DNA of 54,117 nucleotides from Gemmatimonadaceae bacterium (lineage in GTDB: Bacteria; Gemmatimonadota; Gemmatimonadetes; Gemmatimonadales; Gemmatimonadaceae): assembly GCA_025453875.1 (NCBI GenBank), contig JALOPN010000001.1, positions 1 through 54,117 of the forward strand, in the 5' to 3' direction. The notes beneath the pieces were generated by a model. The model did no database searches. It saw nothing but the letters and a program-made list of their open reading frames with translations, and was not told the origin of the DNA. The position numbers were made by a program, and so were the translations under genes. Of the stretch, positions 38,736-52,450 are shown in pieces. Each line of letters begins with the position of its first letter. Within the stretch, counting starts at the first letter, position 1.

Positions 38736-38820
38736 GCGCGGGAATCAACCGGCCAGCCGGCGCGTCGGCAAATGGCCCGCACGCCCGAGCGGGGGCGGGC
38801 GGCACCGCTCGACCGCGCGG

Positions 38821-38870
38821 CTTGACAGTCGCCGTACCGGGCACAACTTTGTTCACCGTCCGAACAAAGT
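38821..38870 (+). promoter_or_regulatory. putative promoter (-35-like CTTGACAG) plus 9-7-9 palindromic operator upstream of the GH-barrel gene
   Basis: CTTGACAG lies at 38821..38828 and ACTTTGTTC-accgtcc-GAACAAAGT at 38846..38870. The same 8-mer and the same half-sites recur on the minus strand at 52333..52385. The palindrome ends 60 nt before the ATG at 38931. Confidence 0.65.
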
Positions 38871-38930
38871 AGCTCGGATCCCGCCTCCCGTTCCCCTCCC
38901 CGCGGCTGTCCCTCTCAGGACGAGGTCCTC

Positions 38931-41900
38931 ATGCGATCGTCCCGCCCCTTGCCAACCGGCACCCCGACCCCGCGTCGGCGGCCGATGGCGCGCCTCTGGC
39001 TGTCGGCCCTTGCGGCGCTGCTCAGCGTGTCGCGGCCGGCGGCCGCCCAGCAGGCGGTCCGGGTGGTCACCGATGCCGGCGGCAGTCGCCTGCAAGTCGA
39101 CGGCACAGACTTCATGGTCCTCGGGATGAACTGGGACTACTTCCCGATCGGCCAGAACTACGCGTACAACTTCTGGGGCCAATCCGACGCGTTCATCCAG
39201 GCCGCGCTCGACCGCGAGATGGCGCTGCTCAAGAGCATGGGCGTGAACACGATCCGACAGTACGTCGGCGTGCCGCCGCGGTGGGTGCGCTACATCTACG
39301 AGAAATACGGCATTTACACGGTGCTCAACCACGCGGTGGGTCGCTACGGCGTGACCGTGAACGGCGCGTATCGGGCCAGCACCGACTACTCCGATCCGGC
39401 GGTGCGGCAGCTGCTGCGCAACGAGGTCACCGCCATGGTGGAGTCGTTCCGCGGTACGCCCGGTGTGCTGATGTATCTGCTCGGCAATGAGAACAACTAC
39501 GGGCTCGAGTGGAAGTCGGCCGAGACCGAGAACCTGCCGGTGGGTGAGCGCAACGCCGCGAAGGCGCGCTACCTCTATTCGCTCATGGGAGAGATCGCGC
39601 GCGCCGTGAAGGCGATCGATCCGTCACGTCCGGTGGCGATGGCCAACGGCGATCTGCAGTACATCGACATCATCGCGCAGGAAGCGAAGGGGCTCGATGT
39701 GTTCGGCGCGAACGTCTATCGCGGCATCTCGTTCGGGACGCTCTTTCAGGAAGTGAAGGACAAGCTCGGCTTGCCGGTGATGTTCACCGAGTTCGGCGCC
39801 GACGCGTACAACGCACGCGAGCGTCGTGAGGACCAGGTCACGCAGGCGAAGTATCTGCTCGGGCAGTGGCGCGAGATCTACGCGCAGGCGGCGGGCAAGG
39901 GCGGCGTGGGCAACTCGATCGGCGGCATGACGTTCCAGTGGTCGGATGGCTGGTGGAAGGTGGGACAGGAGTCCAACCTCGATGTGCAGGACACCGACGC
40001 CGGGTGGTCGAATCAGGCGTACCCCGAGGACTGGATGCCCGGGGACAACAACATGAACGAAGAGTGGTGGGGCATCATGGCGAAGGGTCGCCCCGACGCC
40101 TCGGGACAGTTCCGCCTGTATCCGCGCGCCGCGTACTACGCGCTGCAGCGCGCCTACACACTCGACCCCTACGCGCCCACCACCACGCGCGCCGCGATCG
40201 ACGCGCATTTTGCCGGCATTGCGCCCGCCGCCATGGAGCTGCTCGCGCAGGGTGACCAGGGGGCACGAAGCGCCGCGCAGAACGATCGGTTCCGCATCGC
40301 CGGCATGCGTCTCGAACTGTCAACGTTCAACACGGGCGGCGCCAACATCACCACACCGGGCAGCACGAGCCCGAGCGCGACGGCGCGTCCCGCGTTCCGC
40401 GGCTTCGATCATCTCGAGTCGTACTTCGTGGACGTCGAAGCGAACCCGGCGCCGAATGTTTCGGCTACGCTCTCGATGAACGTGGTGGGCAACGTGCCGG
40501 ACAACCCGATCAACGAACTGTTCTACGAATCGCGCGCGCGCGATCGGACGCTGCGCACCGATGGCGCCAACCTCACCACGAACGGCTTCGAACGCCTGCG
40601 CGTGTACGGGGCGAAGCTGCGCTGGGACGAGCGCGACTTCCGCATCGACGGCTTCTATCGCACGGGGCACTACCACTGGGGCTACGAGGGCGACTTCTTC
40701 GGCCTCTATCGCGAAGCCAACTACGGGCGCAACATCGACATCTACGGCGGCGAAGCACCGCTCGGCTTCGAGTTCACCGGCAAGCGCTCGCTCAACGGCT
40801 TCAAGTTCGCGCTCGGCCCGGAACTCTGGTGGGGCGCCAATCCCGCGCTGCTCGCGAAGTATCAGCGTGACATCGCCGGCGTGAAGGTGACGGGTGTGTT
40901 CCAGGAGGACTTCACGCGCCGCGGCGCCACGGCCAGTTCGTTCGCCGTGCCGCAGCCGAAGGTGCGCACGTCGACGCTGCACCTGCAGACCAACGTCGGC
41001 CTCGCGCAGGTTGAGCTGGGCGGCATCTGGGGCGGCAACACCCGCGTCGGGCGTGCGTTCCAGATCGCCGATGGCGAACCGGGCAACTATCGCGTGCTCG
41101 GTGATCGCGTGAAGGCGAGCGACGCGTGGGGTGGCAAGGCGAAGGTGAGTGTCTCGGCCGGTCGCATCAACTGGTACGCGCAGGGCGCCGCGATGGGTCT
41201 CGTGGCCGACGGTGGCCCGACCGCCACCATGACCTTCACCGGCTGGCAGTTGAAGGACACGGGCATGGGCAATCAGTGGAACGCGCTGTCCGGCCTCACG
41301 TACACGCTCGGGAACTGGCAGATCGCGCCCAACTTCCTCTGGCAGAAGCCCATCGTGGGGCCGGTGCCGAGCGATGTGCCGGCGCCCGGCCGTCCGCGCA
41401 ACATCCTCGACGATCCGTTCTCGGTGCGCTGGAATCGTGAGACGGTGGCCGGCGAAATGCTGCTCACCTTCGACCCGACGCCGGCGACGTACTTCCACCT
41501 GTGGGACAACGACCTGCGCGAGGATGCGCGATTCGCGTTCAACCTCGGGTACGTCTATCGCCACCTGCCCACCACGCAGGACGCCGCCATCGGTATCCTC
41601 GCGGATGGTCGCACGTTCTTCGCCTTCCCCGGTGCAGCACCCGCGCAGGATCTGTGGGAAGTGCGGAGCCGCATCGTGTCGCGGCTGACGCCGGATATCC
41701 GACTCATCGCCAATCTCTTTGGCGGGACGGGACAGGCCAACGGTGACAGCGATCGCCTCATCAAGCGCTACGGCGGCGATCTGCGCGTCGTACGCGGTCA
41801 GGTCAAGCTGCAGGGCGAGGCCCGGTTCAACGACTGGGGACCGTTCGACTACCACCGCGACTTCAACCTCACCTTCCCCACGCAGTACGCGGCCGACCTG

Positions 41901-42110
41901 TCGTATTCGCTGGGTGCGCCGAGCTTCCTCGATTCGCCGGCGACGCGCTTCGGCGTCCGCGGGATCTGGCGCAGCCTCGATCGGTTCTCGCCGCGCTACT
42001 GCCCGGCGCAGGTGGCGGATTCGTTCGGCACGCTGACGTGTGATCCGACCGCCCCCGGCCCGCGTGGTTCCGAGTGGGAAGTGCGCACGTACCTCATGGT
42101 GGGCTGGTGA
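38931..42110 (+). CDS. secreted clan GH-A (beta/alpha)8 glycoside hydrolase domain fused to a large C-terminal outer-membrane-type beta-barrel
   Basis: The signal is MARLWLSALAALLSVSRPAAAQQ. The N-terminal ~400 aa carry NTIRQY, LLGNENNY (acid/base NE) and VMFTEFGADAY (nucleophile E). The C-terminal ~650 aa are rich in alternating-hydrophobic, aromatic strands and end ...EVRTYLMVGW. The alternative start is the ATG at 38985. Confidence 0.75.
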   Translation: MRSSRPLPTGTPTPRRRPMARLWLSALAALLSVSRPAAAQQAVRVVTDAGGSRLQVDGTDFMVLGMNWDYFPIGQNYAYNFWGQSDAFIQAALDREMALLKSMGVNTIRQYVGVPPRWVRYIYEKYGIYTVLNHAVGRYGVTVNGAYRASTDYSDPAVRQLLRNEVTAMVESFRGTPGVLMYLLGNENNYGLEWKSAETENLPVGERNAAKARYLYSLMGEIARAVKAIDPSRPVAMANGDLQYIDIIAQEAKGLDVFGANVYRGISFGTLFQEVKDKLGLPVMFTEFGADAYNARERREDQVTQAKYLLGQWREIYAQAAGKGGVGNSIGGMTFQWSDGWWKVGQESNLDVQDTDAGWSNQAYPEDWMPGDNNMNEEWWGIMAKGRPDASGQFRLYPRAAYYALQRAYTLDPYAPTTTRAAIDAHFAGIAPAAMELLAQGDQGARSAAQNDRFRIAGMRLELSTFNTGGANITTPGSTSPSATARPAFRGFDHLESYFVDVEANPAPNVSATLSMNVVGNVPDNPINELFYESRARDRTLRTDGANLTTNGFERLRVYGAKLRWDERDFRIDGFYRTGHYHWGYEGDFFGLYREANYGRNIDIYGGEAPLGFEFTGKRSLNGFKFALGPELWWGANPALLAKYQRDIAGVKVTGVFQEDFTRRGATASSFAVPQPKVRTSTLHLQTNVGLAQVELGGIWGGNTRVGRAFQIADGEPGNYRVLGDRVKASDAWGGKAKVSVSAGRINWYAQGAAMGLVADGGPTATMTFTGWQLKDTGMGNQWNALSGLTYTLGNWQIAPNFLWQKPIVGPVPSDVPAPGRPRNILDDPFSVRWNRETVAGEMLLTFDPTPATYFHLWDNDLREDARFAFNLGYVYRHLPTTQDAAIGILADGRTFFAFPGAAPAQDLWEVRSRIVSRLTPDIRLIANLFGGTGQANGDSDRLIKRYGGDLRVVRGQVKLQGEARFNDWGPFDYHRDFNLTFPTQYAADLSYSLGAPSFLDSPATRFGVRGIWRSLDRFSPRYCPAQVADSFGTLTCDPTAPGPRGSEWEVRTYLMVGW

Positions 42111-44329
42111 CGCGCACGGCGTCGCTGCAGGCGGCCGAAATCGAGCAGCGCATCACCGCGCTGCTCGAGCGCATGTCGCTCGACGAAAAGGTCGGGCAGC
42201 TCACGCTCTTGCAGGCGGGCGGTGGTCACATCCCCGAGCATCTGCGTGAGGATGTACGCGCGGGGCGCGTTGGCGCCGTGCTCAACGAAGTGCACGTCGA
42301 CACCGCCAACGAGTTGCAGCGCATCGCCACCGAAGAGAGCCGGCTCGGTATTCCGCTGCTCGTGGGGCGTGATGTGATTCACGGCTTTACCACGGTATTC
42401 CCGATTCCGCTCGGCCAGGCGGCCAGTTGGGACCCGGCGCTCGTGACCGCCTGCGCGCGCGTGGCGGCGCAGGAATCCGCCGCGTGTGGCGTGAACTGGA
42501 CGTTCGCGCCCATGCTCGACATCGCGCGCGATCCGCGGTGGGGACGCATCGCCGAATCGCTCGGCGAGGATCCGGTGCTCGCCGGACAACTCGGCGCCGC
42601 GATGGTGCGCGGCTTCCAGGGCGATGACCTCGCCAAGCCCGGCGCGATTGCGGCGTGCGCCAAGCACTTCGCCGCGTACGGTGCGAGCGAGAGCGGACGC
42701 GACTACAACTCCACCAACGTCCCCGAGAACGAACTGCGCAACGTCTATCTGCCGCCCTTCAAGGCGGCGCTGGACGCGGGCGCGGCGAGTGTGATGACGT
42801 CGTTCTCCGATCTCGATGGGGTGCCCGCTTCGGCCAACACGTTCCTCCTGCGCGACATCCTGCGCGAGGAATGGCGCTCCGATGCGATGGTAGTGAGCGA
42901 CTGGGATTCCATCCGGCAGCTCGCCGTGCACGGCTTTACCGAAGATGACCGCAGCTCCGCCTTCGAAGCGGCGCGGGCCGGTGTGGATCTCGAGATGGCA
43001 AGCACGACGTATCGGGATCATTTGCCGTCGCTCGTGCGGGATGGGCGCCTCACCGAATCGCGCATCGACGCGCTCGTGCGCAACGTGCTGCGCCTCAAGT
43101 TCCGACTGGGGTTGTTCGAGTCGGCGCAGACCGATGCTGCCCGCTTCGCACCGGCGGCGTCGCCGTCGCATCTGGCGCTCGCGTACGAAGCGGCCGTCGG
43201 TAGCGCCGTGCTGCTGACCAATCGCGACTGGGCGTTGCCGCTGGATGCCTCGACGCTCACCTCGCTCGCCGTAATCGGCCCGCTGGCGGATGATCCGCAT
43301 GAGCAGCTGGGCACGTGGGTGTTCGATGGCGATGCACAGTACAGTCGCACCATCCTCGACGCCGTGCGTGCGCACGTGGGCGATCGGATCGATGTCCGCT
43401 TCGCCCGCGGTGTCGCCAATACGCGCTCTCGGCGCACGGATCTGATCGACGAGGCGGTAGCGCTCGCCGCCAACTCCGAGGTGACCGTGCTCGTGCTCGG
43501 CGAAGAGGCCATCCTCTCGGGCGAAGCGCACTGCCGCGCTGACGTCACGTTGCCGGGCGCGCAGCAGGCGCTGCTCGAAGCGGTGGCGGCGACCGGCACC
43601 AAGGTGATCGTGGTGCTCATGACCGGGCGCCCGCTGGCGCTCGAGGCCGCCGTACCGCACGCGCACGCGATGCTCTGTGTGTGGCATCCGGGCAGCATGG
43701 CGGGACCGGCGGTCAGCGACCTGCTGTTCGGCGTCCGGTCACCCTCGGGCAAGCTCCCCGTCACGTTCCCGCGGGTGACCGGGCAGATCCCCATCTACTA
43801 CGCGCACAAGCACACGGGCAAGCCCGTGACGCCCGAGTCGTATATTCACCAGGAAGACATCGAACCGCGTGCCCATCAGGTCTCCGTGGGAAACACGTCG
43901 TTCCACCTCGACACGCACTACACACCGCTCTTTCCGTTCGGTCATGGACTGTCCTACAGTCACGTGGAGTACGAACATCTGTGGTCGAGCTCGGGGGTGC
44001 TGCCCATGGAGGGACGCCTCACCCTCGGTGTGGACGTCGTGAACGTCGGTCCGCGCGATACCGTGGAAACGGTGCAGCTCTACGTGCGCGATCTCGTGGG
44101 CGATGTGACGCGACCGGTGCGCGAGCTCAAGGCGTTCACGCGTGTGGCTCTGGCGCGTGGCGAACGACGCACTGTCGAGTTCACGATCACACCGCGCGAT
44201 CTGGCCTTCTACGGCCGTGCGCAGCGACTGCTCGTCGAGCCGGGCCGATTCCACGCGTGGATCGGCGGTTCTTCGACCGCAGAGCTGCGCACGGAGTTCA
44301 CGCTGCTCGATCACGCCACCAGCGCCTGA
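42107..44329 (+). CDS. GH3 beta-glucosidase (BglX-like), no signal peptide
   Basis: LDEKVGQL, GRDVIHG, DIARDPRWGRIAESLGEDP, MTSFSDLDG, and VVSDWDSI as the nucleophile region. The GTG at 42107 overlaps the upstream TGA (GTGA). Confidence 0.9.
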   Translation: MTRTASLQAAEIEQRITALLERMSLDEKVGQLTLLQAGGGHIPEHLREDVRAGRVGAVLNEVHVDTANELQRIATEESRLGIPLLVGRDVIHGFTTVFPIPLGQAASWDPALVTACARVAAQESAACGVNWTFAPMLDIARDPRWGRIAESLGEDPVLAGQLGAAMVRGFQGDDLAKPGAIAACAKHFAAYGASESGRDYNSTNVPENELRNVYLPPFKAALDAGAASVMTSFSDLDGVPASANTFLLRDILREEWRSDAMVVSDWDSIRQLAVHGFTEDDRSSAFEAARAGVDLEMASTTYRDHLPSLVRDGRLTESRIDALVRNVLRLKFRLGLFESAQTDAARFAPAASPSHLALAYEAAVGSAVLLTNRDWALPLDASTLTSLAVIGPLADDPHEQLGTWVFDGDAQYSRTILDAVRAHVGDRIDVRFARGVANTRSRRTDLIDEAVALAANSEVTVLVLGEEAILSGEAHCRADVTLPGAQQALLEAVAATGTKVIVVLMTGRPLALEAAVPHAHAMLCVWHPGSMAGPAVSDLLFGVRSPSGKLPVTFPRVTGQIPIYYAHKHTGKPVTPESYIHQEDIEPRAHQVSVGNTSFHLDTHYTPLFPFGHGLSYSHVEYEHLWSSSGVLPMEGRLTLGVDVVNVGPRDTVETVQLYVRDLVGDVTRPVRELKAFTRVALARGERRTVEFTITPRDLAFYGRAQRLLVEPGRFHAWIGGSSTAELRTEFTLLDHATSA

Positions 44330-44351
44330 CCATTCAGACGTTTCCGTCATC

Positions 44352-46130
44352 ATGACTGCGTTGCCTTCACAGACGCCCGCCGATCCTGCGGCGGTTGACC
44401 AGCTGCTGTCGCGGCTGTCGCTCGAGCAGAAGATCGGCCAGATGATTCAGGCCGAACGCATGGCCATCACACCGGATGAGGTGGCCGAGTATCACATCGG
44501 CTCGATCCTCAGTGGCGGTGGCTCGGCGCCTGGCGCGAATCAGCCCGCCGACTGGATCGCGATGAACGACGCCTACTGGGCCGCCTCGATGCGCGAGGGA
44601 CCGGGGCGTGTGCCCATTCCGTTGGTGTACGGCGTGGACGCGATTCACGGCCACACCAACGTGCTCGGCGCCACGGTGTTTCCGCACAACATCGGCCTTG
44701 GGGCGACTAATGATCCGTCGCTCATCGAACGCATCGCGCGTGCGACCGCGCTCGAGATTCTCGCCACCGGTGTGGACTGGACGTTCGCGCCGACGCTGGC
44801 CGTGGTGCAGGATCCACGCTGGGGCCGCACGTACGAGAGCTTCTCCGACGATCCGGCGCTCGTGGCGCGCTACGCCGCGCCCTACGTGCGTGGGCTGCAG
44901 GATGGCGGAAGCGACGCGGGTGTCATTGCGTGCGCCAAGCACTGGGTGGGCGACGGTGGCACGACGGACGGCAACGATCAGGGCAACACCGTGCTCTCCG
45001 AAGCCGAGTTGGAGCGCGTGCACATGACGCCGTACCGACCGGCCATCGAGGCCGGCGTCCTCACCGTCATGGCGTCGTTCAACAGCTGGAACGGCGAGAA
45101 GTGTCACGGACATCGGTACCTGCTCACCGATGTGCTCAAGGGCCGACTCGGCTTCGACGGGTTCATCATTTCCGATTGGGACGGCGTCGAGTATCTCGAC
45201 GAGGATCTCGGTGTGGCGATCGAACGGTGCGTGAACGCCGGCGTCGACATGCTGATGATCTCCGTCGAGTGGAAGCGCTACATCGAGCTGCTGCTCGCGA
45301 GTGTGCGCGCGGGTCGGATTCCGATGGCGCGCATCGACGACGCGGTGCGGCGCATTCTGTCGGTGAAGCAACGCTGCGGCTTGCTGTCGCGCGTGCGTCC
45401 GGCCGAGCGGACGACAGCGACGCCCGGTGTGCTCGGTGCGCCCGCACATCGCGCGTTGGCGCGCGAAGCGGTGCGGGCGTCGCTCGTGCTGCTGCAGCAT
45501 GACAAACAGATACTGCCGCTCGCGCCGTCGGCTCGCGTGCTCGTTGCCGGCCGCAATGCCGACAACCGTGGACATCAGTGCGGCGGCTTTACGGTGGCGT
45601 GGCAGGGTACGAATGGCAACGACCAGATCATTGGCGGGACGTCGATCTGGGAAGGCATTCAGGCGCAGACGCCACACGCCGAGTTCAGCCTCGACGGTGA
45701 CGCGGCCGATGCGACGCGGCATGACGTGGCCATCGTGGTGATCGGCGAGCGGCCGTACGCTGAAGGGATGGGTGACATTCGACCCGACCGGAAGGTCGCG
45801 CCGGGGTCGAGTCCGGCGGGCCGCACGGCGCAACTCGCTCCGTACGGACAGTCGCTGGTGAATGCCGAGCTGCACCCGGACGATCTCGCGACCATTCAGC
45901 GCATTCAGGCGCGTGGCGTACCAGTCGTGGCCGTGATGATTTCCGGTCGCCCGCTTCGTGTGGACGCCGAGCTCGCGCACACGGCAGCGTTTGTGGCCGC
46001 GTGGCTGCCGGGGTCGGAAGGGCAGGGCGTGGCCGATGTGCTCTTCGGTGCGGCGCCGTTCAGCGGGACGCTCCCGATGCCGTGGCCGCACGGCGATGGC
46101 GTCTGGCCGCGCGGCTACGGACTGCGCTGA
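44352..46130 (+). CDS. GH3 exo-beta-glucanase/beta-glucosidase (ExoI/ExoP-like), no signal peptide
   Basis: LEQKIGQM, YGVDAIHGH, VVQDPRWGRTYESFSDDP and FIISDWDGV. I chose the ATG at 44352 (MTALPSQ); the track start at 44142 overlaps the upstream gene. Confidence 0.9.
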   Translation: MTALPSQTPADPAAVDQLLSRLSLEQKIGQMIQAERMAITPDEVAEYHIGSILSGGGSAPGANQPADWIAMNDAYWAASMREGPGRVPIPLVYGVDAIHGHTNVLGATVFPHNIGLGATNDPSLIERIARATALEILATGVDWTFAPTLAVVQDPRWGRTYESFSDDPALVARYAAPYVRGLQDGGSDAGVIACAKHWVGDGGTTDGNDQGNTVLSEAELERVHMTPYRPAIEAGVLTVMASFNSWNGEKCHGHRYLLTDVLKGRLGFDGFIISDWDGVEYLDEDLGVAIERCVNAGVDMLMISVEWKRYIELLLASVRAGRIPMARIDDAVRRILSVKQRCGLLSRVRPAERTTATPGVLGAPAHRALAREAVRASLVLLQHDKQILPLAPSARVLVAGRNADNRGHQCGGFTVAWQGTNGNDQIIGGTSIWEGIQAQTPHAEFSLDGDAADATRHDVAIVVIGERPYAEGMGDIRPDRKVAPGSSPAGRTAQLAPYGQSLVNAELHPDDLATIQRIQARGVPVVAVMISGRPLRVDAELAHTAAFVAAWLPGSEGQGVADVLFGAAPFSGTLPMPWPHGDGVWPRGYGLR

Positions 46131-46142
46131 CGCGACGATACA

Positions 46143-46171
46143 GGCCCGTGCGATGCATGATCGCACGGGCC
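46143..46171. terminator. bidirectional terminator hairpin between convergent GH3 and MFS genes
   Basis: GGCCCGTGCGAT-gcatg-ATCGCACGGGCC is a perfect 12-bp stem, followed by TTGTT on the plus strand. Confidence 0.6.
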
Positions 46172-46181
46172 TTGTTCGAGC

Positions 46182-47720
46182 TCAGCCCGTCGTGGCCGGT
46201 GCGCCGCGGCGGGCTTCGAGCTGTTCGCGCACGTCGCGTGCACGCGCTTCCGTGATCGGGTAGCGCGCCACGGCCCAGATGGCGAGCGCCGACGTGGCCA
46301 TGGGGATGAGAACGTCACAGAGGCGCAGCAGCAGGATTGTCTGCGGGTCCTGCGCGCCGCCCTTCGCGACATCGAAGCCCGTGGCGTTGAGCAGGAAGCC
46401 ACCGGCGGCCAGCGCGGCCGCCATGCCGAGCTTCACGACCCACCAGAAGATCGACCCGAACATCCCTTCGCGGCGTTGATGGGTGGTCAGCTCATCCACG
46501 TCACACACGTCCGCGATCATCGCGCCCATGAGCGTGAACAGGCCGCCAAGACCGAAGGCCATGAGCGGGACCGGGACGAGCAGCAGCATCGGATAGGCCG
46601 GATTGTAGCAGAACCACTTCAGGCCGTAGCCGAGTATGGACAGCCCGGTGGACACGAAAAACGCCTTGCGCTTGCCGAGGCGCGTGCTGAGCGCCGTCAC
46701 GATGAAGATGACCGCGAAGGTGGACGCCGCGCCGAGCGTTCCGGCGTATCCCGAGTAGCGAGCGCCGAGCTCCTGATTGCCGCCGAACACGTAGTAGATG
46801 ATCACGTACGTCTGGAACGACGAGATCATGATGAAGCCGTTGAACACCAGGAAGGTCGCCGCGCACAACTTGAGGAACGGACCCGAGCGGACCGTCGTGG
46901 CAAAGCCGCGGAAGAACTCGCGCATGTTGTGCTGGAACGCAGCCCAGCGGGTGCGACCTGCGGCCTCGGCGCTCTCGGCCGCTTGCACGAATCGCTCACG
47001 CAACACCAGCGCCGGTACGATCCCGATCGACGCGGCGACGAGGCCGATCGCGATTCCAAGGCCACGGGCACCGCTCACCTGATCGGTGAACCACGCCTTG
47101 TTCGACATGATCCACAGGAACCACGGCGAAATCAGGTAGGCGAGCTGCCCGATGAAGTTCTGCACGCCCATGAGGCGCGTTCGCTCGTGGTAATCGGGCG
47201 TGAGTTCATAGCCGAGTGCCACCCACGGCGTCGCGAACACCGTGTAGGCGAGGTAGAAGATGATCGACCCGATCAGGAAGAACCAGAAGTAGAACGACTC
47301 GCTGCGGCCGGCCGGAAGTTGCCAGAGGAGCGCGAACAGCACGCCCGACGCGATCGCGCCCGCGAAGATGTACGGGCGTCGCCGTCCCCAGCGCGAGCGC
47401 GTGGTGTCCGAGATGTAGCCCATCATCGGATCGGTCAGCGCGTCGGTGATGCGCGGGAGCGCGCCAAGGAGTCCAACCAGCGCGGGGTTCATGCCCAACC
47501 CAAGGTTGAGCACGATCGTCATGCCGCCGATGGCGGCGGCGAGCAGGTTGTTGACGAAGGCACCGAGGCCGTAGGCCACCTTGCGGCCGAAGCTGATGCG
47601 ATCGGCCGTCGCCGTCTGAAACTGCGACGTGAAACCCGTGTGTCCCGAATCATCGATGCGTGTGTGCCAGGCGGCGACCGCCAGCTGCCACAACGCACGG
47701 GCGCGGGTCGCGATACTCAC
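46182..47720 (-). CDS. glycoside-pentoside-hexuronide (GPH):cation symporter, MFS superfamily
   Basis: About 12 TM segments and the GPH signature DALTDPMMGYISDTTRSRWGRRRPYI. The GTG start at 47720 overlaps the GH16 stop (GTGA). Confidence 0.9.
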   Translation of the reverse strand: MSIATRARALWQLAVAAWHTRIDDSGHTGFTSQFQTATADRISFGRKVAYGLGAFVNNLLAAAIGGMTIVLNLGLGMNPALVGLLGALPRITDALTDPMMGYISDTTRSRWGRRRPYIFAGAIASGVLFALLWQLPAGRSESFYFWFFLIGSIIFYLAYTVFATPWVALGYELTPDYHERTRLMGVQNFIGQLAYLISPWFLWIMSNKAWFTDQVSGARGLGIAIGLVAASIGIVPALVLRERFVQAAESAEAAGRTRWAAFQHNMREFFRGFATTVRSGPFLKLCAATFLVFNGFIMISSFQTYVIIYYVFGGNQELGARYSGYAGTLGAASTFAVIFIVTALSTRLGKRKAFFVSTGLSILGYGLKWFCYNPAYPMLLLVPVPLMAFGLGGLFTLMGAMIADVCDVDELTTHQRREGMFGSIFWWVVKLGMAAALAAGGFLLNATGFDVAKGGAQDPQTILLLRLCDVLIPMATSALAIWAVARYPITEARARDVREQLEARRGAPATTG

Positions 47721-48514
47721 GGCGCGCGCTGGTAGACGCGCACCCAGTCAACGAGCATCGTCTGCGGGAACCGTGTGTCGGCGTTGGGTGAGCCGACGAA
47801 CGTGCCGCCCACCGCGACGTTGAGAATGAGGTAGAACGGATGGTCGAACACCCACGGACCCGGTACGTCGGTGCGCCGCACGGTGTGATAGAGGCGATCG
47901 TCCACGAAGAAATCGATCCGGTCGGCAGTCCAGTCGGTGCGGAACTCGTGGAAACCGTCATCGAAGCGTGCGCCCTGCAGCTCGAAGCGACGCGTGATGC
48001 CGTTCCCCGCCGAGTAGCCGGGGCCGTGAATGGTGCCGTGTACGACGCGCGGCTCCTGTCCGCGATACTCCATGACATCGATCTCGCCGGCCTGCGGCCA
48101 CCCGACCTGCGCAAAGTTGCCGCCGAGCATCCAGAACGCGGGCCAGATCCCCTGACCCACGGGCAGCTTGATGCGCGCCACGATGCGACCGTACTGGAAC
48201 TCGCGCTTGCCGGCGGTGGTGATGCGCGCCGACGTGTAGTTGCGGCCGTTGAACGACTCGGCACGTGCCACGATGGCAAGATTGCCGTTGCCGTCAAGCG
48301 AGGCGTTGCTCGCGCGATCGGTGTCGAATTCGAGTTGTGCGTTGCCCCAGTCGGTCCCGACGTCGAAGCGCCAGTTGGCGGCGTCGGGGAGGGTACCAGC
48401 GGCGCCCGTGAACTCATCTTGCCAGACGAGGGCATAGTCGGGATCCGCAGGTTCGGTGCTGCATCCGAGCAGCGCGGCTGCGAACAGCATCGCAGAAAGG
48501 GAGGAACGCATCAT
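47717..48514 (-). CDS. GH16 endo-beta-1,3(4)-glucanase (laminarinase-type) lipoprotein
   Basis: ATGATG at 48514 gives MMRSSLSAMLFAAALLGCS. The catalytic motif is GEIDVMEY (ExDxxE), with WPAFWMLG nearby. Confidence 0.9.
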   Translation of the reverse strand: MMRSSLSAMLFAAALLGCSTEPADPDYALVWQDEFTGAAGTLPDAANWRFDVGTDWGNAQLEFDTDRASNASLDGNGNLAIVARAESFNGRNYTSARITTAGKREFQYGRIVARIKLPVGQGIWPAFWMLGGNFAQVGWPQAGEIDVMEYRGQEPRVVHGTIHGPGYSAGNGITRRFELQGARFDDGFHEFRTDWTADRIDFFVDDRLYHTVRRTDVPGPWVFDHPFYLILNVAVGGTFVGSPNADTRFPQTMLVDWVRVYQRAP

Positions 48515-48533
48515 GGCTGCTCGAGGTGAGGCG

Positions 48534-49805
48534 CTACGCCGCGCCGACGGAAGGAAAGAGGGAGGGATCGGCCAGCGCCGCTTCCAGCGCGAGCGTGGCC
48601 GCACCAACGGCGACCCCGAGAGGGCCGAGTTCGCTGTGCTTGATCTCCGAGGCGGCGACCGCACTCACGAACGTGCGACGCAAGACGGTTTCGCGCAGTG
48701 GTTCGAGCAGGCGATGGCCAACGCGAGCGAGCCCACCGCCAATGATCACGGCCGCCGGATTCTGCAGGTTGAGCAGACCAGCGATGGCGATGCCGAGGTG
48801 GCCCGCAGCTTCCGACACGACCTGCACGGCGAGCGGATCATCGTCGATCGCCGCCGCTTCGATGGCTGCAATGGTCAACGCTCGCTTTCGCTTGCTCGCG
48901 TGCAGTGCGCTCGACGGGAAATCTGCGAGCAGCGACTCCGCGCGACGCACGAGTGCGGCCGCGCCCACGAACGTCTGCAGGCACCCGCGGTTTCCGCAGC
49001 CGCACAGCTCGCCGCGTGGATCGATGGCCACGTGGCCGATTTCGCCGGCCACACCGGTGGCGCCGCGTCGCACCGCACCGTCGATCACGTGTCCCGAACC
49101 GATACCGGTGGCGACCTTGATGTACGTGAAGTCCCGCACCCCGCGCCCCGCGCCCCACCACTGCTCGGCGAGGGCGCCGAGGTTGGCGTCGTTGTCGAGA
49201 AAGAGCGGCGCGTTGAACGCGCGTTGCAGCGCGTCGAAGCCGTGACGTCCCTCCCACGCCGGCAACACGAGCGGTGACAGCCGCTCCGGATGACGCGGGT
49301 CCACGGGGCAGGGCAAGCCGATGCCGATGCCGAGCAGCGGTGCGCGACCGGCGCTGCGCTCCTGCAGCGAGCGTTCAATGAGCGCCGCCGCCAGCGTCCG
49401 TGTGCCGTCGGGATCGTGTCGCACATCGCACGGATGCGACGCCGTCGTCAGCACGCGTCCGCGCAGATCGGTGATCACGACGGTGAGGTGCGTGGCGCCA
49501 ATGTCGAGCCCCACGATGCGACACGCATCGTCGCGGAAGTGGAGATTGATGGGCCGCCGCCCCCCGCTCGACTCACCTACGCCCGCTTCAGCGACGAGCT
49601 CTCGCTCGATCAGCGACGCGACCAACTCGGAGACGGTGGAGCGAGAGAGCTCGGTGCGTCGCGCCAGTTCGGCCCGCGAGATCTCACGCTCCTGCCAGAT
49701 GAGGCGCAGGAGCGTGTCGGCGAGTGCCGACGGACGTGCGCCACTGGGAACAGTGGCGCGTCCGACGGACTGGGCGGGAGCACGGTAGAGCAGGCGGTCA
49801 CGCAT
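48534..49805 (-). CDS. ROK-family transcriptional regulator (N-terminal wHTH + sugar-kinase-like fold)
   Basis: The wHTH is ISRAELARRTELSRSTVSELVASLIE. ROK motifs are GLDIGATH, DNDANLGALAE, GEIGH, and the Zn site CGCGNRGCLQ. Confidence 0.9.
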   Translation of the reverse strand: MRDRLLYRAPAQSVGRATVPSGARPSALADTLLRLIWQEREISRAELARRTELSRSTVSELVASLIERELVAEAGVGESSGGRRPINLHFRDDACRIVGLDIGATHLTVVITDLRGRVLTTASHPCDVRHDPDGTRTLAAALIERSLQERSAGRAPLLGIGIGLPCPVDPRHPERLSPLVLPAWEGRHGFDALQRAFNAPLFLDNDANLGALAEQWWGAGRGVRDFTYIKVATGIGSGHVIDGAVRRGATGVAGEIGHVAIDPRGELCGCGNRGCLQTFVGAAALVRRAESLLADFPSSALHASKRKRALTIAAIEAAAIDDDPLAVQVVSEAAGHLGIAIAGLLNLQNPAAVIIGGGLARVGHRLLEPLRETVLRRTFVSAVAASEIKHSELGPLGVAVGAATLALEAALADPSLFPSVGAA

Positions 49806-49846
49806 CGCGGTTCCTCAGCGGCCCGCGGGGCGAGCCGCGAGCCGGG

Positions 49847-52273
49847 TCACTTGTGCAGCAGCACGTTGTCGATGAAGACCGTCTTGGGATCGCCCGAGAT
49901 GATCAGCTGCGCAAGATGCCCGCGGGTGGTGAGCCCGGGGAAGAGCGTGAGCGGCAGGTCGAGTCGGCGCCACTGCCCGGTGGCGAGCCCCGGCGTTGAC
50001 GCGGCCGTGATGGTGATCTCGTGTTCGGTGTCGTCGCCGCCACCGAACGCGCCGTTGGCGCCGAAATCGACGAGCTTGATGCGGAACGCAGCCGGCGCAG
50101 CCGTCGCGTCCGGCGTCCACACGTCCATCGAGAAGTGCGTCATGGCGCGCGCATCGATGGTGGTGCTCGTGAACTCGATGCCGGCGAACACGAGATTGGA
50201 ATACTTCTTCGTGGCGTTGCCGGCAACCGACACGTCGGCCACGTCCGCGTTGTCCCACGACGCCGACCAGGTATCGACCGGACGCATCGGGTAGGCATCG
50301 CTGAAGAGCGCGATCACGTCACCGGCCGCCCACGTCGGGGCGGGGGCGGCGGTGAGCGGCGCGGTCGGCGCCTGATCGGAGTAGAAGTAGAGATTGTCGA
50401 GATACACCGTCTTCGGATCGGACACGAAGATGAGCTGCGCGAGGTTGCCGCGCGTGACGAGCCCCGTGAAGGCGCTGAGCGGGATGTCGAAGCCCACCCA
50501 TTCGCCGGTCCGGATGCCGGGCGTGGTGGTCGCGTCGAAGGTGAGCTCATGCTCCACATCGTCTCCGCCACCGAACGCGCCGTTCGCACCGAAGTCGACG
50601 AGCTTGATCTTGAAAGTGGCCGGTGCGGCGGTCGCATCGGGCGTCCAGTAATCGAGGTGGAAGCCCGTCATGCCGCGTGCGTCGATCGTGGGTGACGTGA
50701 ACTCGATGCCGGCGAAGACGAAGTTGCTGTACTTCTTCACGTCACTCCCGGCGATCGTGACGTCCTCGACATCGGCGTTGTCCCACGGTGCCGACCACGT
50801 GCTCACTGGCACGTTCGAGTACGCGTTGCTGAAGAGCGAAATGACCTGTCCGGCAGGACGTGCCGGTGCCGGCGCGGCCGTGGTGGGCGCCGTGGGCGCG
50901 GGCACGCGATAGAAGTAGACGTTGTCGAGATACACCGTGCTCGACGAGCCGGAGAGAATGAGCTGGGCGACCTTGCTGCGTCCGGTGAGGCCGGGGAACG
51001 CCGCGAGCGGAATATCGAGGCTGCTCCACGCGTTGGCGGTGAGCGCTGGCGACGAGGTGCCGGTGAGCGTGAGTTCATGCTCGCTATCGTCACCGCCACC
51101 GAATACGCCGTTGGCCCCGAAGTCCACGAGCTTCACGCGGAATGCCGTCGTGTTCGTGACGTAGACATCGAGGTGCAGATGCGACATCGCGCGGATGTCG
51201 AGCGGATTGGCGATGAACTCGACGCCGGCGAAGACGAAGTTGGTGTAGCGCTTGGTTGCGTTGCCGGCAACCTGCACATCGGCCACATCGGCCTGGTCCC
51301 ACACGGCCGACCACGTATCCACCGGGCGCTGCGTGTACGCGTTGCTGAAGAGGGCGATCACGTCCGCGGCGTTGCGCGTAGGCGTCGGGGCCGCCGTGGC
51401 GGGCGGCGACACGGTGCTCACCGTGATCGTCCCGGTCGCGGCCGTCGCGCCAAGCGACGCGCTGATTGTCGCGTTGCCCGCACCCACAATGGCGACTTCG
51501 CCACGATCGCTCACCGTGGCCACCGCGGGGTTGGATGACGTGAAGCTGAAGTACTGCGCCGAGGCCGCCACCGTGACGTCCGCGCCATCCACGTCGAAGA
51601 TGACGGACGCACCACCGATCGTCGTGCGACCACCGACTTCATCGGCAAACGACGTCGTCGCGATCGTCGGACGCGGATTGCGAATGGTGCCGAGCTTCTC
51701 GAAGCGAATCTCGTCGATCCACAGATCGTACGCCGCATTGTTCTCCGCGCCTTCCGCGAAGAAGAACATGCCGCGCTCCTGCGACAGTCGTTCGGCGAGC
51801 GGAATCGGGATCACCACCTTGCGCCACGTGGTGCCGATCGGAATGCCACCGCGTTCCGCCGCGAAGCGCGAGGTTCCGGTGTTGTCGTTGCCAAGCCCTG
51901 CAACGTTGAGCTGGGCCGAGATGCTCGCGCGCACCCAGAAGGTGAGCGCGTCGTACTCGCGGAGGTCACGCGCGACGTTGGAGACGAACGCTCCGCCTGC
52001 GAAACCACCCGTCGCATCACCAGGCGCCGGTACCATCACCTTGAGCGACGCGCTGCCGCGGAAGGTGACCGTGGGATCGATGGTGAGCGCGTCGAGCTTG
52101 GAGCCACCGAAGGCCTCGAACCCGATCCCCGGCGCGAACCCGTCGGAGAAGATGATGGGGTCACTCGGGAACGGCGCAGGATCGAGCAGGCTCAGGTCGC
52201 GGCTGCACGCGGCGAGCAGAAAGCCGGTGCCAAGCATCGCAAGCAGGCGATGGGCGGACGAGCGCGGGGACAT
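49847..52273 (-). CDS. surface lipoprotein with an N-terminal CBM-like domain, a Big_2 Ig-like domain and three tandem ~170-aa putative glycan-binding repeats
   Basis: The ATG at 52273 gives MSPRSSAHRLLAMLGTGFLLAAC. A Big_2-like segment is FTSSNPAVATVSDRGEVAIVGAGNATISA. Three repeats follow, each with VI.LFS.AY...PV.TWSA.WD.ADV.DV..AG...K.Y.N.VFAG.EF...KLVDFGANG.FGGGDD.EHE...YLDN.YFY. Confidence 0.75.
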   Translation of the reverse strand: MSPRSSAHRLLAMLGTGFLLAACSRDLSLLDPAPFPSDPIIFSDGFAPGIGFEAFGGSKLDALTIDPTVTFRGSASLKVMVPAPGDATGGFAGGAFVSNVARDLREYDALTFWVRASISAQLNVAGLGNDNTGTSRFAAERGGIPIGTTWRKVVIPIPLAERLSQERGMFFFAEGAENNAAYDLWIDEIRFEKLGTIRNPRPTIATTSFADEVGGRTTIGGASVIFDVDGADVTVAASAQYFSFTSSNPAVATVSDRGEVAIVGAGNATISASLGATAATGTITVSTVSPPATAAPTPTRNAADVIALFSNAYTQRPVDTWSAVWDQADVADVQVAGNATKRYTNFVFAGVEFIANPLDIRAMSHLHLDVYVTNTTAFRVKLVDFGANGVFGGGDDSEHELTLTGTSSPALTANAWSSLDIPLAAFPGLTGRSKVAQLILSGSSSTVYLDNVYFYRVPAPTAPTTAAPAPARPAGQVISLFSNAYSNVPVSTWSAPWDNADVEDVTIAGSDVKKYSNFVFAGIEFTSPTIDARGMTGFHLDYWTPDATAAPATFKIKLVDFGANGAFGGGDDVEHELTFDATTTPGIRTGEWVGFDIPLSAFTGLVTRGNLAQLIFVSDPKTVYLDNLYFYSDQAPTAPLTAAPAPTWAAGDVIALFSDAYPMRPVDTWSASWDNADVADVSVAGNATKKYSNLVFAGIEFTSTTIDARAMTHFSMDVWTPDATAAPAAFRIKLVDFGANGAFGGGDDTEHEITITAASTPGLATGQWRRLDLPLTLFPGLTTRGHLAQLIISGDPKTVFIDNVLLHK
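49850..51397 (-). repeat. three tandem coding repeats (about 507, 528 and 516 nt) inside the lipoprotein gene
   Basis: Nucleotide-level similarity is visible. Examples are ccgccaccgaacgcgccgtt.gc.ccgaa.tcgacgagcttgat at ~50040, ~50565 and ~51095. The protein repeats are separated by the linkers APTAPTTAAPAP and APTAPLTAAPAP. Confidence 0.85.
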
Positions 52274-52332
52274 CGAAGGCTCCGAGGCGGGGGCGGAGAG
52301 GCCGACCGGTCGTGATCGGGGAGGGATGGCCA

Positions 52333-52385
52333 GCTTTGTTTGGCTGGCGAACAAAGTATGGGTGCCGTGTTCGGAACCTGTCAAG
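52333..52385 (-). promoter_or_regulatory. putative promoter (-35-like CTTGACAG) plus 9-7-9 palindromic operator upstream of the repeat lipoprotein gene
   Basis: The minus strand reads CTTGACAG (52385..52378) ... ACTTTGTTC-gccagcc-AAACAAAGC (52357..52333). This is the same box and half-site as at 38821..38870. The palindrome ends 59 nt before the ATG at 52273. Confidence 0.65.
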
Positions 52386-52429
52386 CACAAAAACACGACG
52401 CCCCCGCGCCGAGGGGGCGCGGGGGCGTC
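52386..52429 (-). terminator. canonical intrinsic terminator after the TonB-dependent receptor gene
   Basis: A perfect 14-bp GC stem (plus strand GACGCCCCCGCGCC-gaggg-GGCGCGGGGGCGTC, 52397..52429) begins 21 nt after the stop codon. On the minus strand it is followed by GTGTTTTTGTG. Confidence 0.8.
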
Positions 52430-52450
52430 GGCCGAGGAGGCGACGTAGGC

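What the first reader, a model, noticed from the sequence alone, without database searches (positions are those of the whole stretch)
38821..38870. Identical promoter box plus 9-7-9 palindrome shared by two units of the beta-glucan locus 13 kb apart: likely operator
Upstream of the GH-barrel gene the plus strand reads CTTGACAG-N17-ACTTTGTTC-accgtcc-GAACAAAGT. Upstream of the repeat lipoprotein gene the minus strand (52385..52333) reads CTTGACAG-N20-ACTTTGTTC-gccagcc-AAACAAAGC. In both cases the palindrome ends 59-60 nt before the ATG. Both leaders are C/T-rich and share CCCTCCCCG.

Such AT-rich symmetric sites stand out in ~70% G+C DNA. ROK-family repressors are known to bind AT-rich palindromes overlapping promoters. 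The locus-encoded ROK regulator (48534..49805) is therefore the obvious candidate binder.
Basis: partly seen in the sequence, partly recalled or inferred. Interest (0 to 1): 0.65.

Follow-up and report, generated by a model that had tools for sequence, protein, structure and literature searches.

The report
ROK repressor operators, beta-glucan locus
Two copies of one 25-base palindrome sit on the core promoters of two convergent beta-1,3-glucan (laminarin-type) degradation operons in this Gemmatimonadota genome and are almost certainly the docking sites of the sugar-sensing ROK repressor encoded in one of them: a well-supported but conventional sugar switch.

Summary
Two copies of ACTTTGTTY-N7-RAACAAAGY lie at 38846-38870 and 52333-52357, each 19-22 nt downstream of a TTGACA box and 59-60 nt before an ATG. 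They are the only such sites in the 2.96-Mb assembly.

The reading as a ROK operator is strongly supported by comparative genomics, but binding was not tested.
- All seven same-genus genomes with the ROK ortholog keep both sites. The arms and TTGACA are invariant; the spacers and flanks have diverged.
- An exact-pattern scan of 185,579 species genomes returned 80 loci. In 67 the site lies next to homologs of this locus, across about seven phyla.
- 67 of the 69 sites in those loci carry TTGAC at a fixed distance.
- In 301 Gemmatimonadota genomes, 21 of 22 with the exact motif have the ROK ortholog. All 25 ROK genomes have a site with at most 2 mismatches.
- The site has NagC/Mlc geometry: 23 bp, TT/AA at +/-5,6, C/G at +/-11. 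The regulator has a NagC-type GGRR linker.

This scan has reached the same verdict on at least six other genomes, so this is a new member of a known kind.

One oddity remains. In one Longimicrobiales genus the same palindrome is also conserved inside unrelated coding genes, including in a genome that lacks the ROK.

The parts
38822..38827 (+). -35 box TTGACA of promoter A (GH-barrel operon)
   Evidence: Read directly. Invariant in 9 same-genus genomes while the flanks diverge. TTGAC lies at a 17-22 nt gap in 67 of 69 locus-linked sites across phyla.
38845..38850 (+). Inferred weak -10 (AACTTT, 17-nt spacer), formed partly by the left operator arm
   Evidence: Inference. The promoter scan did not call it. 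The A just before CTTTG is 95% conserved in 61 sites against 69% for its symmetric T. That asymmetry fits a double role as the -11 A.
38846..38870 (.). Operator A: ACTTTGTTC-accgtcc-GAACAAAGT, perfect 9-7-9 palindrome
   Evidence: Conserved in all congeners that carry the locus.
38931..42110 (+). Gene 1 of operon A: glycoside hydrolase (TIM barrel) fused to a large beta-barrel
   Evidence: Pfam Glyco_hydro_2_C, residues 90-295. Orthologs at 72-90% identity sit downstream of site A in congeners.
42074..44329 (+). GH3 beta-glucosidase a (exact start uncertain)
   Evidence: Pfam GH3 N-terminal, GH3 C-terminal and Fn3-like domains.
44142..46130 (+). GH3 beta-glucosidase b (exact start uncertain), last gene of operon A
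   Evidence: Pfam GH3 N-terminal (9e-80) and C-terminal domains. The overlapping 599-aa minus-strand ORF has no family hit and is spurious.
46143..46171 (.). 12-bp GC-rich hairpin between the convergent operons, a likely bidirectional terminator
   Evidence: Read directly: GGCCCGTGCGAT-gcatg-ATCGCACGGGCC. Not called by the T-tail terminator scan.
46182..47720 (-). MFS_2 (GPH-type) sugar symporter, last gene of operon B
   Evidence: Pfam MFS_2, 1.8e-61.
47717..48511 (-). GH16 glucanase
   Evidence: Pfam Glyco_hydro_16. Its ATG lies 22 nt after the ROK stop codon.
48534..49805 (-). ROK-family regulator, the proposed binder: N-terminal winged helix-turn-helix plus sugar-binding domain
   Evidence: Pfam ROK (7.6e-54) plus HTH families. 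Full-length alignment to ROK regulator structures 1z05, Mlc 1z6r and Lmo0178. GGRRP linker, DNDAN, GEIGH and CGCGNRGC motifs are present.
49847..52273 (-). Repeat-containing surface lipoprotein, first gene of operon B
   Evidence: Weak Big_2 match. Lipobox read. It is the gene most often found downstream of the operator across phyla (32 of 61 sites).
52280..52298 (-). Conserved leader element CTCCG-N9-CGGAG that contains the Shine-Dalgarno GGAG
   Evidence: Nearly invariant in 8 genomes while the rest of the leader diverges. It forms the 5-bp stem in the folded leader. Function unknown.
52333..52357 (.). Operator B: ACTTTGTTC-gccagcc-AAACAAAGC as read on the - strand
   Evidence: Conserved in congeners.
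52355..52360 (-). -10 box CATACT of promoter B, overlapping the first 3 bases of operator B
   Evidence: Promoter scan: TTGACA-18-CATACT, 10 of 12 matches. CAT is invariant in 8 genomes.
52379..52384 (-). -35 box TTGACA of promoter B
52396..52430 (-). Intrinsic terminator of the upstream TonB-dependent receptor gene
   Evidence: 15-bp stem (14 GC pairs) followed by TGTTTTTGTG.

Best explanation
The two palindromes are operators of the ROK-family repressor encoded at 48534-49805.

The core is 23 bp, CTTTGTTYG-N5-CRAACAAAG, extended to 25 bp by a flanking A and T/C. Each operator starts inside or just after the -10 region of a sigma-70-type promoter (TTGACA, then 17-18 nt, then a -10) and reaches past the expected transcription start.

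Proposed mechanism:
1. Without inducer, a ROK dimer binds each operator and blocks RNA polymerase at both promoters.
2. This shuts off operon A (GH-barrel, GH3, GH3; + strand) and operon B (lipoprotein, ROK, GH16, MFS symporter; - strand). The repressor therefore also limits its own synthesis.
3. Basal surface glucanases release beta-1,3-gluco-oligosaccharides. The MFS symporter imports them and the cytoplasmic GH3 enzymes cleave them.
4. A glucose-configured sugar, laminaribiose or glucose, binds the intact ROK sugar pocket and releases the repressor.

Shown here: the sites, their uniqueness, their conservation, their fixed placement on the promoter, and their association with the ROK ortholog.
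Inferred: physical binding, repression rather than activation, and the identity of the inducer.
For: 1. Uniqueness. There are two sites in 2.96 Mb, and none in shuffles.

2. Phylogenetic footprint.
- In 7 congeners with ROK orthologs (71-75% identity), both sites keep invariant arms and an invariant TTGACA.
- The -35/-10 spacer, the central 5-7 nt and most of each leader have diverged.

3. Genus distribution.
- The 8 genomes with a full ROK ortholog have exactly two sites with 0-1 mismatch. Fragmentary G014, which holds only a ROK fragment, has one.
- The 6 genomes without ROK have no site with 2 mismatches or fewer.

4. Global scan for the exact 23-mer.
- 67 of 80 returned loci carry homologs of the lipoprotein, GH-barrel, ROK, GH16 or MFS genes beside the site.
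- The hosts are Gemmatimonadota, Rhodothermales, Ignavibacteria/Melioribacteraceae, Myxococcota, Zixibacteria, Krumholzibacteriota and Eisenbacteria.
- 61 sites lie upstream of such a gene, at a median of 65-75 nt.
- 67 of 69 locus-linked sites have TTGAC at a 17-22 nt gap, against 1 of 13 unlinked sites.

5. The motif follows ROK when the neighbours change. In L069 one site precedes ROK and a second precedes a Sugar_tr transporter gene.

6. Phylum sample of 301 genomes.
- The exact motif occurs in 22 genomes; the reversed-pattern control occurs in none.
- The ROK ortholog occurs in 25. The overlap is 21.
- The 4 ROK-only genomes have sites with 1-2 mismatches; in G241 and G366 these lie beside or flanking the ROK gene, in G345 about 10 kb away, and in G363 on a different contig.
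- Most positive genomes have two sites 12-15 kb apart that bracket the ROK gene.

7. Family geometry.
- NagC/Mlc operators are quasi-palindromes whose only invariant positions are TT/AA at +/-5,6. High-affinity NagC sites have C/G at +/-11 (PMC4288165). Both features are met here.
- Thermotogae ROK operators are 23-bp palindromes (PMC3553997).
- RokB binds TTTGTTC-N11-GAACAAA, the same half-site (PMC4856308).

8. The protein.
- It has a winged helix-turn-helix, a NagC-type GGRR linker, a Zn motif and sugar-binding motifs.
- The helix-turn-helix and linker are near-invariant in 18 orthologs from several phyla, which matches the invariant operator.
Against: - No binding, expression or transcription-start data exist.
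- ROK, the operators and the catabolic genes are inherited as one block. The GH-barrel gene has the same presence/absence pattern as ROK. Co-occurrence therefore does not single out ROK by itself.
- Promoter A has only a weak -10, and the consensus scan did not call it.
- One genome, G320 (97% complete, 4 contigs), has 3 exact and 5 near copies of the palindrome. It has no ROK regulator ortholog and no detectable ROK-like DNA-binding domain. Those copies are intragenic and lack TTGACA.
Confidence: 0.85

Rival explanations
1. The palindromes are operators of a different transcription factor encoded elsewhere in the genome, and the ROK protein regulates something else or acts only as a kinase.
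For: - Co-occurrence cannot separate ROK from the rest of the co-inherited locus.
- G320 keeps copies of the palindrome without any ROK-type DNA-binding domain.
Against: - ROK is the only protein with a DNA-binding domain in the conserved core.
- The motif tracks ROK even where the neighbouring genes differ (L069, L096).
- The site geometry is the ROK/NagC type.
- The helix-turn-helix and linker are as invariant as the site.
- The regulator has a full N-terminal winged helix-turn-helix, unlike the kinase paralogs, which align only from residue ~96.
Confidence: 0.06
2. ROK binds the sites but acts as an activator or dual regulator, as NagC does at some promoters, rather than as a simple repressor.
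For: From my own knowledge, NagC is known to activate some promoters. Promoter A has a poor -10 and could need help.
Against: - The site overlaps the -10 and the expected start in 67 of 69 cases, with a fixed 19-21 nt gap from TTGACA. That is the classic position for steric repression.
- Activator sites normally lie at or upstream of the -35.
- Promoter B has a good TTGACA-18-CATACT core.
Confidence: 0.05
3. The palindrome acts at the RNA level, as a 5' leader hairpin affecting stability, attenuation or translation.
For: The site A sequence folds into a perfect 9-bp hairpin if it is transcribed.
Against: - With the TTGACA-based promoter, the start falls inside or after the left arm, so the full hairpin would not be in the RNA.
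- Site B does not form the hairpin in its minimum-energy fold, and its sense strand has C-A and A-C mismatches.
- The arms are invariant in sequence across phyla and show no compensatory changes.
- Leader folds are not unusual (z -1.5 and -1.7).
- No Rfam family matches.
Confidence: 0.02
4. The motif is a dispersed repeat or mobile-element remnant with no specific regulatory role.
For: In one Longimicrobiales genus, extra copies occur at unrelated loci, some of them inside genes.
Against: - This genome has only two copies, and each congener has exactly two, all at orthologous promoters.
- No sequence similarity extends beyond the 25-27 bp.
- The reversed-pattern control gives zero hits in 301 genomes.
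Confidence: 0.02

Closest known systems
NagC and Mlc operators of Escherichia coli (ROK-family repressors; PMC4288165)
   Same: - 23-bp quasi-palindrome with TT/AA at +/-5,6 from the centre, and C/G at +/-11 as in high-affinity NagC sites.
- The regulator has an N-terminal winged helix-turn-helix, a GGRR linker motif and a ROK sugar domain with a Zn motif.
- The sites overlap sugar-utilisation promoters.
   Different: - The arm sequence differs (CTTTGTTCG) and is almost invariant, not merely AT-rich.
- There is a single operator per promoter, 13.5 kb apart, so no looping pair.
- The protein scores far below the NagC and Mlc equivalog cut-offs (194 against 650 bits, 163 against 530 bits), so it is not an ortholog.
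- The target is a beta-glucan locus, not amino-sugar or PTS genes.
BglR (TM0032) of Thermotoga maritima, ROK repressor of the laminarin/beta-glucoside operon (PMC3553997)
   Same: - ROK repressor encoded in, and autoregulating, a beta-glucan/beta-glucoside utilisation operon.
- 23-bp palindromic operator a few tens of nt upstream of the first gene.
- BglR is released by glucose and cellobiose in vitro, which suggests what kind of inducer to test here.
   Different: - The operator sequence is unrelated (AATTTCTTTCTGAGGAAGATAGA).
- The transporter type and the enzymes differ.
- Orthology was not tested here and is unlikely. It is a functional analogue in another phylum.
RokB (Sco6115) site on PnovH, Streptomyces (PMC4856308)
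   Same: An experimentally mapped ROK binding site with the same half-site: TTTGTTC ... GAACAAA.
   Different: - The spacer is 11 nt rather than 7 nt, so the half-sites are phased differently.
- RokB's native genomic sites do not look like this.
- RokB is linked to amino-acid metabolism, not to glucan use.

Membership tests
ROK-family transcriptional regulator (NagC/Mlc/XylR type) | N-terminal winged helix-turn-helix fused to a ROK (PF00480) sugar-binding domain | tested here: met
   - Pfam ROK 7.6e-54 over residues 98-408, plus HTH_IclR, MarR and HTH_24 at residues 32-73.
- Aligns over residues ~30-405 to ROK regulator structures 1z05, Mlc 1z6r/3bp8 and Lmo0178 5f7p.
ROK-family transcriptional regulator (NagC/Mlc/XylR type) | Zn-binding CxCGxxGC motif and sugar-contact motifs (DNDAN, GExGH) | tested here: met
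   Sequence read: LDNDANLGALAE, GVAGEIGHVAID, LCGCGNRGCLQTF. That these are the ROK motifs is from my own knowledge of the family.
ROK-family transcriptional regulator (NagC/Mlc/XylR type) | Gly/Arg-rich linker after the helix-turn-helix that contributes to operator recognition (GGR or GRP; PMC4288165) | tested here: met
   GESSGGRRPINL in this protein. GGR(R/P)P occurs in 17 of 18 orthologs and GGRKP in one. The paper describes GGRR as the NagC motif.
ROK-type operator | About 23-bp quasi-palindrome with TT/AA at positions +/-5,6 from the centre | tested here: met
   The core CTTTGTTYG-N5-CRAACAAAG is 23 bp. Counting from the centre gives TT at -6,-5, AA at +5,+6 and C/G at +/-11.
ROK-type operator | Located at promoters of the regulator's own operon and of the co-regulated sugar genes, and conserved with the regulator | tested here: met
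ROK-type operator | Specific binding by the purified regulator and release by a sugar effector | not testable with these tools
   Needs EMSA, footprinting or DAP-seq.
NagC or Mlc orthologs (NCBIfam equivalogs) | Score above the curated equivalog cut-off | tested here: not met
   NagC model: 193.7 bits against a cut-off of 650. Mlc model: 162.9 bits against 530. The protein is a separate ROK subfamily.

The most novel reading that the evidence does not exclude
The palindrome may be more than a local operator. In one Longimicrobiales genus, exact copies without a TTGACA box are conserved inside unrelated coding genes: the purH inter-domain linker, a methyltransferase and a kynureninase-like gene.

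- The arms are invariant between species while the 5-nt spacer changes.
- The arms use codons (TTT, GTT, AAA) that run against the strong GC3 bias.
- The copies persist in a near-complete genome that has neither the ROK regulator nor the glucan locus.

This would imply either a second, unidentified sequence-specific binder, or that ROK has a wider role through intragenic roadblock or architectural sites that tie housekeeping genes to glucan availability.
Probability: 0.15. Interest if true: 0.6.

Novelty: new member of a known kind. Interest (0 to 1): 0.3.

Why it matters
It supplies the regulatory logic (operator sequence, promoter architecture, likely repressor, autoregulation) for a SusC/SusD-less laminarin-type utilisation locus. 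That locus is shared by Gemmatimonadota and several other poorly cultured phyla involved in polysaccharide turnover.

The 23-mer is specific enough to serve as a genomic marker for the locus and its regulon. In 301 genomes the reversed-pattern control gave no hits.

The cassette TTGACA-N19-21-CTTTGTTCG-N5-CGAACAAAG has a sigma-70-like -35 box, so it should be testable in E. coli.

The mechanism itself is textbook, and this scan has already reported the same system on several other genomes.

Tried and rejected
- **RNA element.** Rfam with relaxed thresholds over 38000-53000 gave only two sub-threshold chance hits. Leader folds are not unusual, and site B does not form the hairpin.
- **Promoter A.** The sigma-70 consensus scan did not call promoter A. 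It did call promoter B.
- **Shared leader motif CCCTCCCCG.** It is not conserved in orthologous leaders, so I rejected it as a functional element.
- **Prior description.** Full-text searches for the arm strings and for ROK plus laminarin plus Gemmatimonadota found no paper describing this operator. The string search did surface the RokB half-site.
- **Extra weak sites in this genome.** The 3-mismatch hit at C309:2761 lies inside a gene and is taken as chance.
- **The 599-aa minus-strand ORF at 44367-46166.** It has no family hit, and a GH3 gene lies on the opposite strand, so I rejected it as a gene.
- **A ROK-like DNA-binding domain in G320**, which might explain its intragenic sites. None was found at E <= 0.01.
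- **Operator upstream of the TonB-dependent receptor.** This could not be examined because the contig ends inside that gene. The receptor is present at this position in only 3 of the 8 genomes of the genus that carry this part of the locus.

Full report
**What is there**

- Site A, + strand: CTTGACAG (38821-38828), 17 nt, then the perfect palindrome ACTTTGTTC-accgtcc-GAACAAAGT (38846-38870). Sixty nt follow before the ATG at 38931.
- Site B, - strand: CTTGACAG (52385-52378), 20 nt, then ACTTTGTTC-gccagcc-AAACAAAGC (52357-52333). Fifty-nine nt follow before the ATG at 52273.
- With up to 3 mismatches the palindrome occurs only at these two places in the window, against 0.00 expected.
- In the whole assembly (2.96 Mb, 410 contigs, 64% complete; the window is the entire contig C270), these are the only hits with 2 mismatches or fewer.
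- The next hit has 3 mismatches and lies inside a gene.
- The 8-mer CTTGACAG is not significant on its own.

**Gene context**

- Site A precedes a glycoside hydrolase/beta-barrel fusion (38931-42110) and two GH3 genes on the + strand.
  - The second GH3 is 44142-46130.
  - The 599-aa ORF on the opposite strand is spurious.
- Site B precedes, on the - strand, a repeat lipoprotein, the ROK regulator (48534-49805), a GH16 and an MFS_2 symporter. These genes are tightly packed; the GH16 ATG lies 22 nt after the ROK stop.
- The two operons converge on a 12-bp GC hairpin at 46143-46171.
- Upstream of site B, a strong intrinsic terminator (52396-52430) closes a TonB-dependent receptor gene that runs off the contig.

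**Conservation within the genus**

- ROK orthologs at 71-75% identity occur in 7 of 14 same-genus genomes, plus a fragment in an eighth.
- All seven carry both palindromes at the orthologous positions. In G002 the second site is on another contig.
- Alignments of both promoter regions show classic footprints.
  - Invariant: CTTGACA and the two arms. At site B the CAT before the left arm is invariant too.
  - Diverged: the -35/-10 spacer, the central bases and most of each leader.
- The 6 congeners without the ROK ortholog have no site with 2 mismatches or fewer.
- Those 6 also lack the GH-barrel gene. The locus is therefore gained or lost as a block.
- The receptor gene upstream of site B is present in only 3 of the 8 genus genomes that carry this part of the locus. 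The conserved unit is the two operator-controlled operons.

**Conservation across phyla**

- In 67 of the 80, homologs of the lipoprotein, GH-barrel, ROK, GH16 or MFS genes lie within the 8-kb stretch.
- The hosts are Gemmatimonadales, Longimicrobiales, Palauibacter, Rhodothermales, Ignavibacteria/Melioribacteraceae, Myxococcota (including the isolate Archangium lansingense), Zixibacteria, Krumholzibacteriota and Eisenbacteria.
- Sixty-one sites lie directly upstream of such a gene: 32 before the lipoprotein, 23 before the GH-barrel and 4 before ROK. The median distance is 65-75 nt.
- Sixty-seven of the 69 sites in these loci have TTGAC at a gap of 17-22 nt, mostly 19-21. Only 1 of 13 sites in the unlinked loci does.
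- In L069 one site precedes ROK itself and a second precedes a Sugar_tr transporter gene. The motif therefore follows ROK rather than any particular enzyme.

**Co-occurrence with ROK**

In a sample of 301 Gemmatimonadota genomes:
- The exact motif is in 22 genomes, and the reversed-pattern control is in none.
- A ROK ortholog (E <= 1e-75, 52-64% identity) is in 25.
- Twenty-one genomes have both.
- The four ROK-only genomes have sites with 1-2 mismatches. In G241 and G366 these lie beside or flanking the ROK gene, in G345 about 10 kb away, and in G363 on a different contig.
- Most positives have two sites 12-15 kb apart that bracket the ROK gene.
- These genomes are related, so the counts overstate independence.

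**Fit to the ROK family**

- The protein has the winged helix-turn-helix plus ROK architecture.
- It aligns end to end with ROK regulator structures.
- It carries the NagC-type linker GGRR(P), the Zn motif CGCGNRGC and the sugar-contact motifs DNDAN and GEIGH.
- It scores far below the NagC and Mlc equivalog cut-offs. It is therefore a separate subfamily.
- PMC4288165 states that NagC/Mlc sites are quasi-palindromes whose only invariant positions are TT/AA at +/-5,6, and that high-affinity NagC sites have C/G at +/-11. Counting from the centre of the present sites gives exactly this.
- Thermotogae ROK operators are 23-bp palindromes 27-138 nt upstream of start codons. They include BglR of the laminarin/beta-glucoside operon, which glucose and cellobiose release (PMC3553997).
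- RokB of Streptomyces binds TTTGTTC-N11-GAACAAA. The half-site is the same but the spacing differs (PMC4856308).
- In 18 ROK orthologs from several phyla, the helix-turn-helix (SRAE/D..R....SRST) and the linker are near-invariant. This matches the invariant operator.

**Mechanism**

- Promoter B is called as TTGACA-18-CATACT, 10 of 12 matches. Seven congeners have one base less between TTGACA and CATACT, which gives a 17-nt spacer. The operator starts at the fourth base of this -10.
- Promoter A has only a weak -10 (AACTTT) and is not called.
- Across 61 sites, the A just before CTTTG is 95% conserved while its symmetric T is only 69% conserved. I read this as the A doubling as the -11 A of a (C/T)ACTTT -10 element.
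- The left arm is thus part of the -10, and the palindrome spans the expected start. This is the position for steric repression.
- The inferred cycle: repression without sugar, basal surface glucanases, import by the MFS symporter, cleavage by the GH3 enzymes, then release of ROK by laminaribiose or glucose. ROK is autoregulated through operon B.

**Rival readings**

- An RNA hairpin is unlikely.
  - The start would fall within the palindrome.
  - Site B has mismatches on the sense strand and does not fold into the hairpin.
  - The arms are invariant rather than covarying.
  - No Rfam family matches.
- A dispersed repeat is excluded for this genome and genus.
- Another regulator cannot be formally excluded, because the locus is inherited as a block. 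However, no other DNA-binding protein belongs to the conserved core.

**Unexplained side observation, in other genomes**

In one Longimicrobiales genus, extra exact copies lack TTGACA, and several lie inside coding genes.
- The purH inter-domain linker in three species, a methyltransferase in three species and a kynureninase-like gene in three species have invariant arms.
  - In purH and the kynureninase-like gene every species has a different spacer.
  - In the methyltransferase, G320 and G322 share one spacer and G231 differs.
- They are mostly read in frame as FVR-xx-NKV, using codons that run against the GC3 bias. At least two of the sites are not clearly in this frame.
- An alignment of 30 PurH homologs shows that the site sits in a hypervariable linker. 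Other genera lack the peptide.
- Genome G320 (97% complete, 4 contigs) has 3 exact and 5 near copies, none beside a glucan-locus gene.
  - The copies examined lie inside unrelated genes.
  - G320 has no ROK regulator ortholog and no ROK-like DNA-binding domain.
- I could not explain this. It does not affect the reading for the window.

**Novelty**

Full-text searches found no published description of this operator or regulon. This scan, however, has already reported the same ROK operator system on at least six other genomes, with the same verdict. It is a new member of a well-known kind of switch: solidly supported by comparative genomics, experimentally untested, and mechanistically conventional.

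Noticed in passing
Other genomes: L185:8139, L182:10426, L184:7881 (G320); L223, L228, L236 (G322); L224, L229, L238 (G231); L225 (G285): In one Longimicrobiales genus, exact copies of the operator palindrome lack a TTGACA box and lie inside unrelated coding genes: the purH linker, a methyltransferase and a kynureninase-like gene. They are mostly read as FVR-xx-NKV with codons against the GC3 bias. The arms are invariant between species, and the spacer differs between species in purH and the kynureninase-like gene. G320 keeps them without any ROK regulator.
   Followed up: partly
window 44367-46166 (-) versus 44142-46130 (+): The 599-aa minus-strand ORF has no family hit and is an antisense artefact of high-GC DNA. 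The real gene is a second GH3 on the + strand, which makes operon A GH-barrel, GH3, GH3.
   Followed up: yes
window 52280-52298 (-): The leader element CTCCG-N9-CGGAG just before the lipoprotein ATG is nearly invariant in 8 genomes, while the rest of the leader diverges. Its 3' arm contains the Shine-Dalgarno GGAG, and the loop holds a CCTCC-like run (CCTCCT in seven genomes, CGCCT in the window). This suggests possible translational control.
   Followed up: no
window 46143-46171: A perfect 12-bp GC-rich hairpin (GGCCCGTGCGAT/ATCGCACGGGCC) lies in the 51-nt gap between the convergent GH3b and MFS genes. It is a probable bidirectional terminator without a T tail.
   Followed up: no
window 52451-54117 (-); L021, L024: The TonB-dependent receptor gene upstream of site B is present at this position in only 3 of the 8 genus genomes that carry this part of the locus (G000, G013, G004). 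It is separated from operon B by a strong terminator, so it is a variable add-on. Its own promoter lies beyond the contig end.
   Followed up: partly
L061:2439-2463 (G013:C19:7438-7462): A same-genus genome has a third, degenerate copy (2 mismatches) 20 nt downstream of a TTGACA box, in front of a Big_2-repeat surface protein gene. It is a probable extra regulon member. No counterpart was found in the incomplete window genome.
   Followed up: partly
L080 (Archangium lansingense MIWBW, NZ_JAPNKA010000001.1): A cultured myxobacterium carries the same TTGACA-plus-palindrome cassette upstream of a lipoprotein homolog. It offers a tractable organism for experiments.
   Followed up: no
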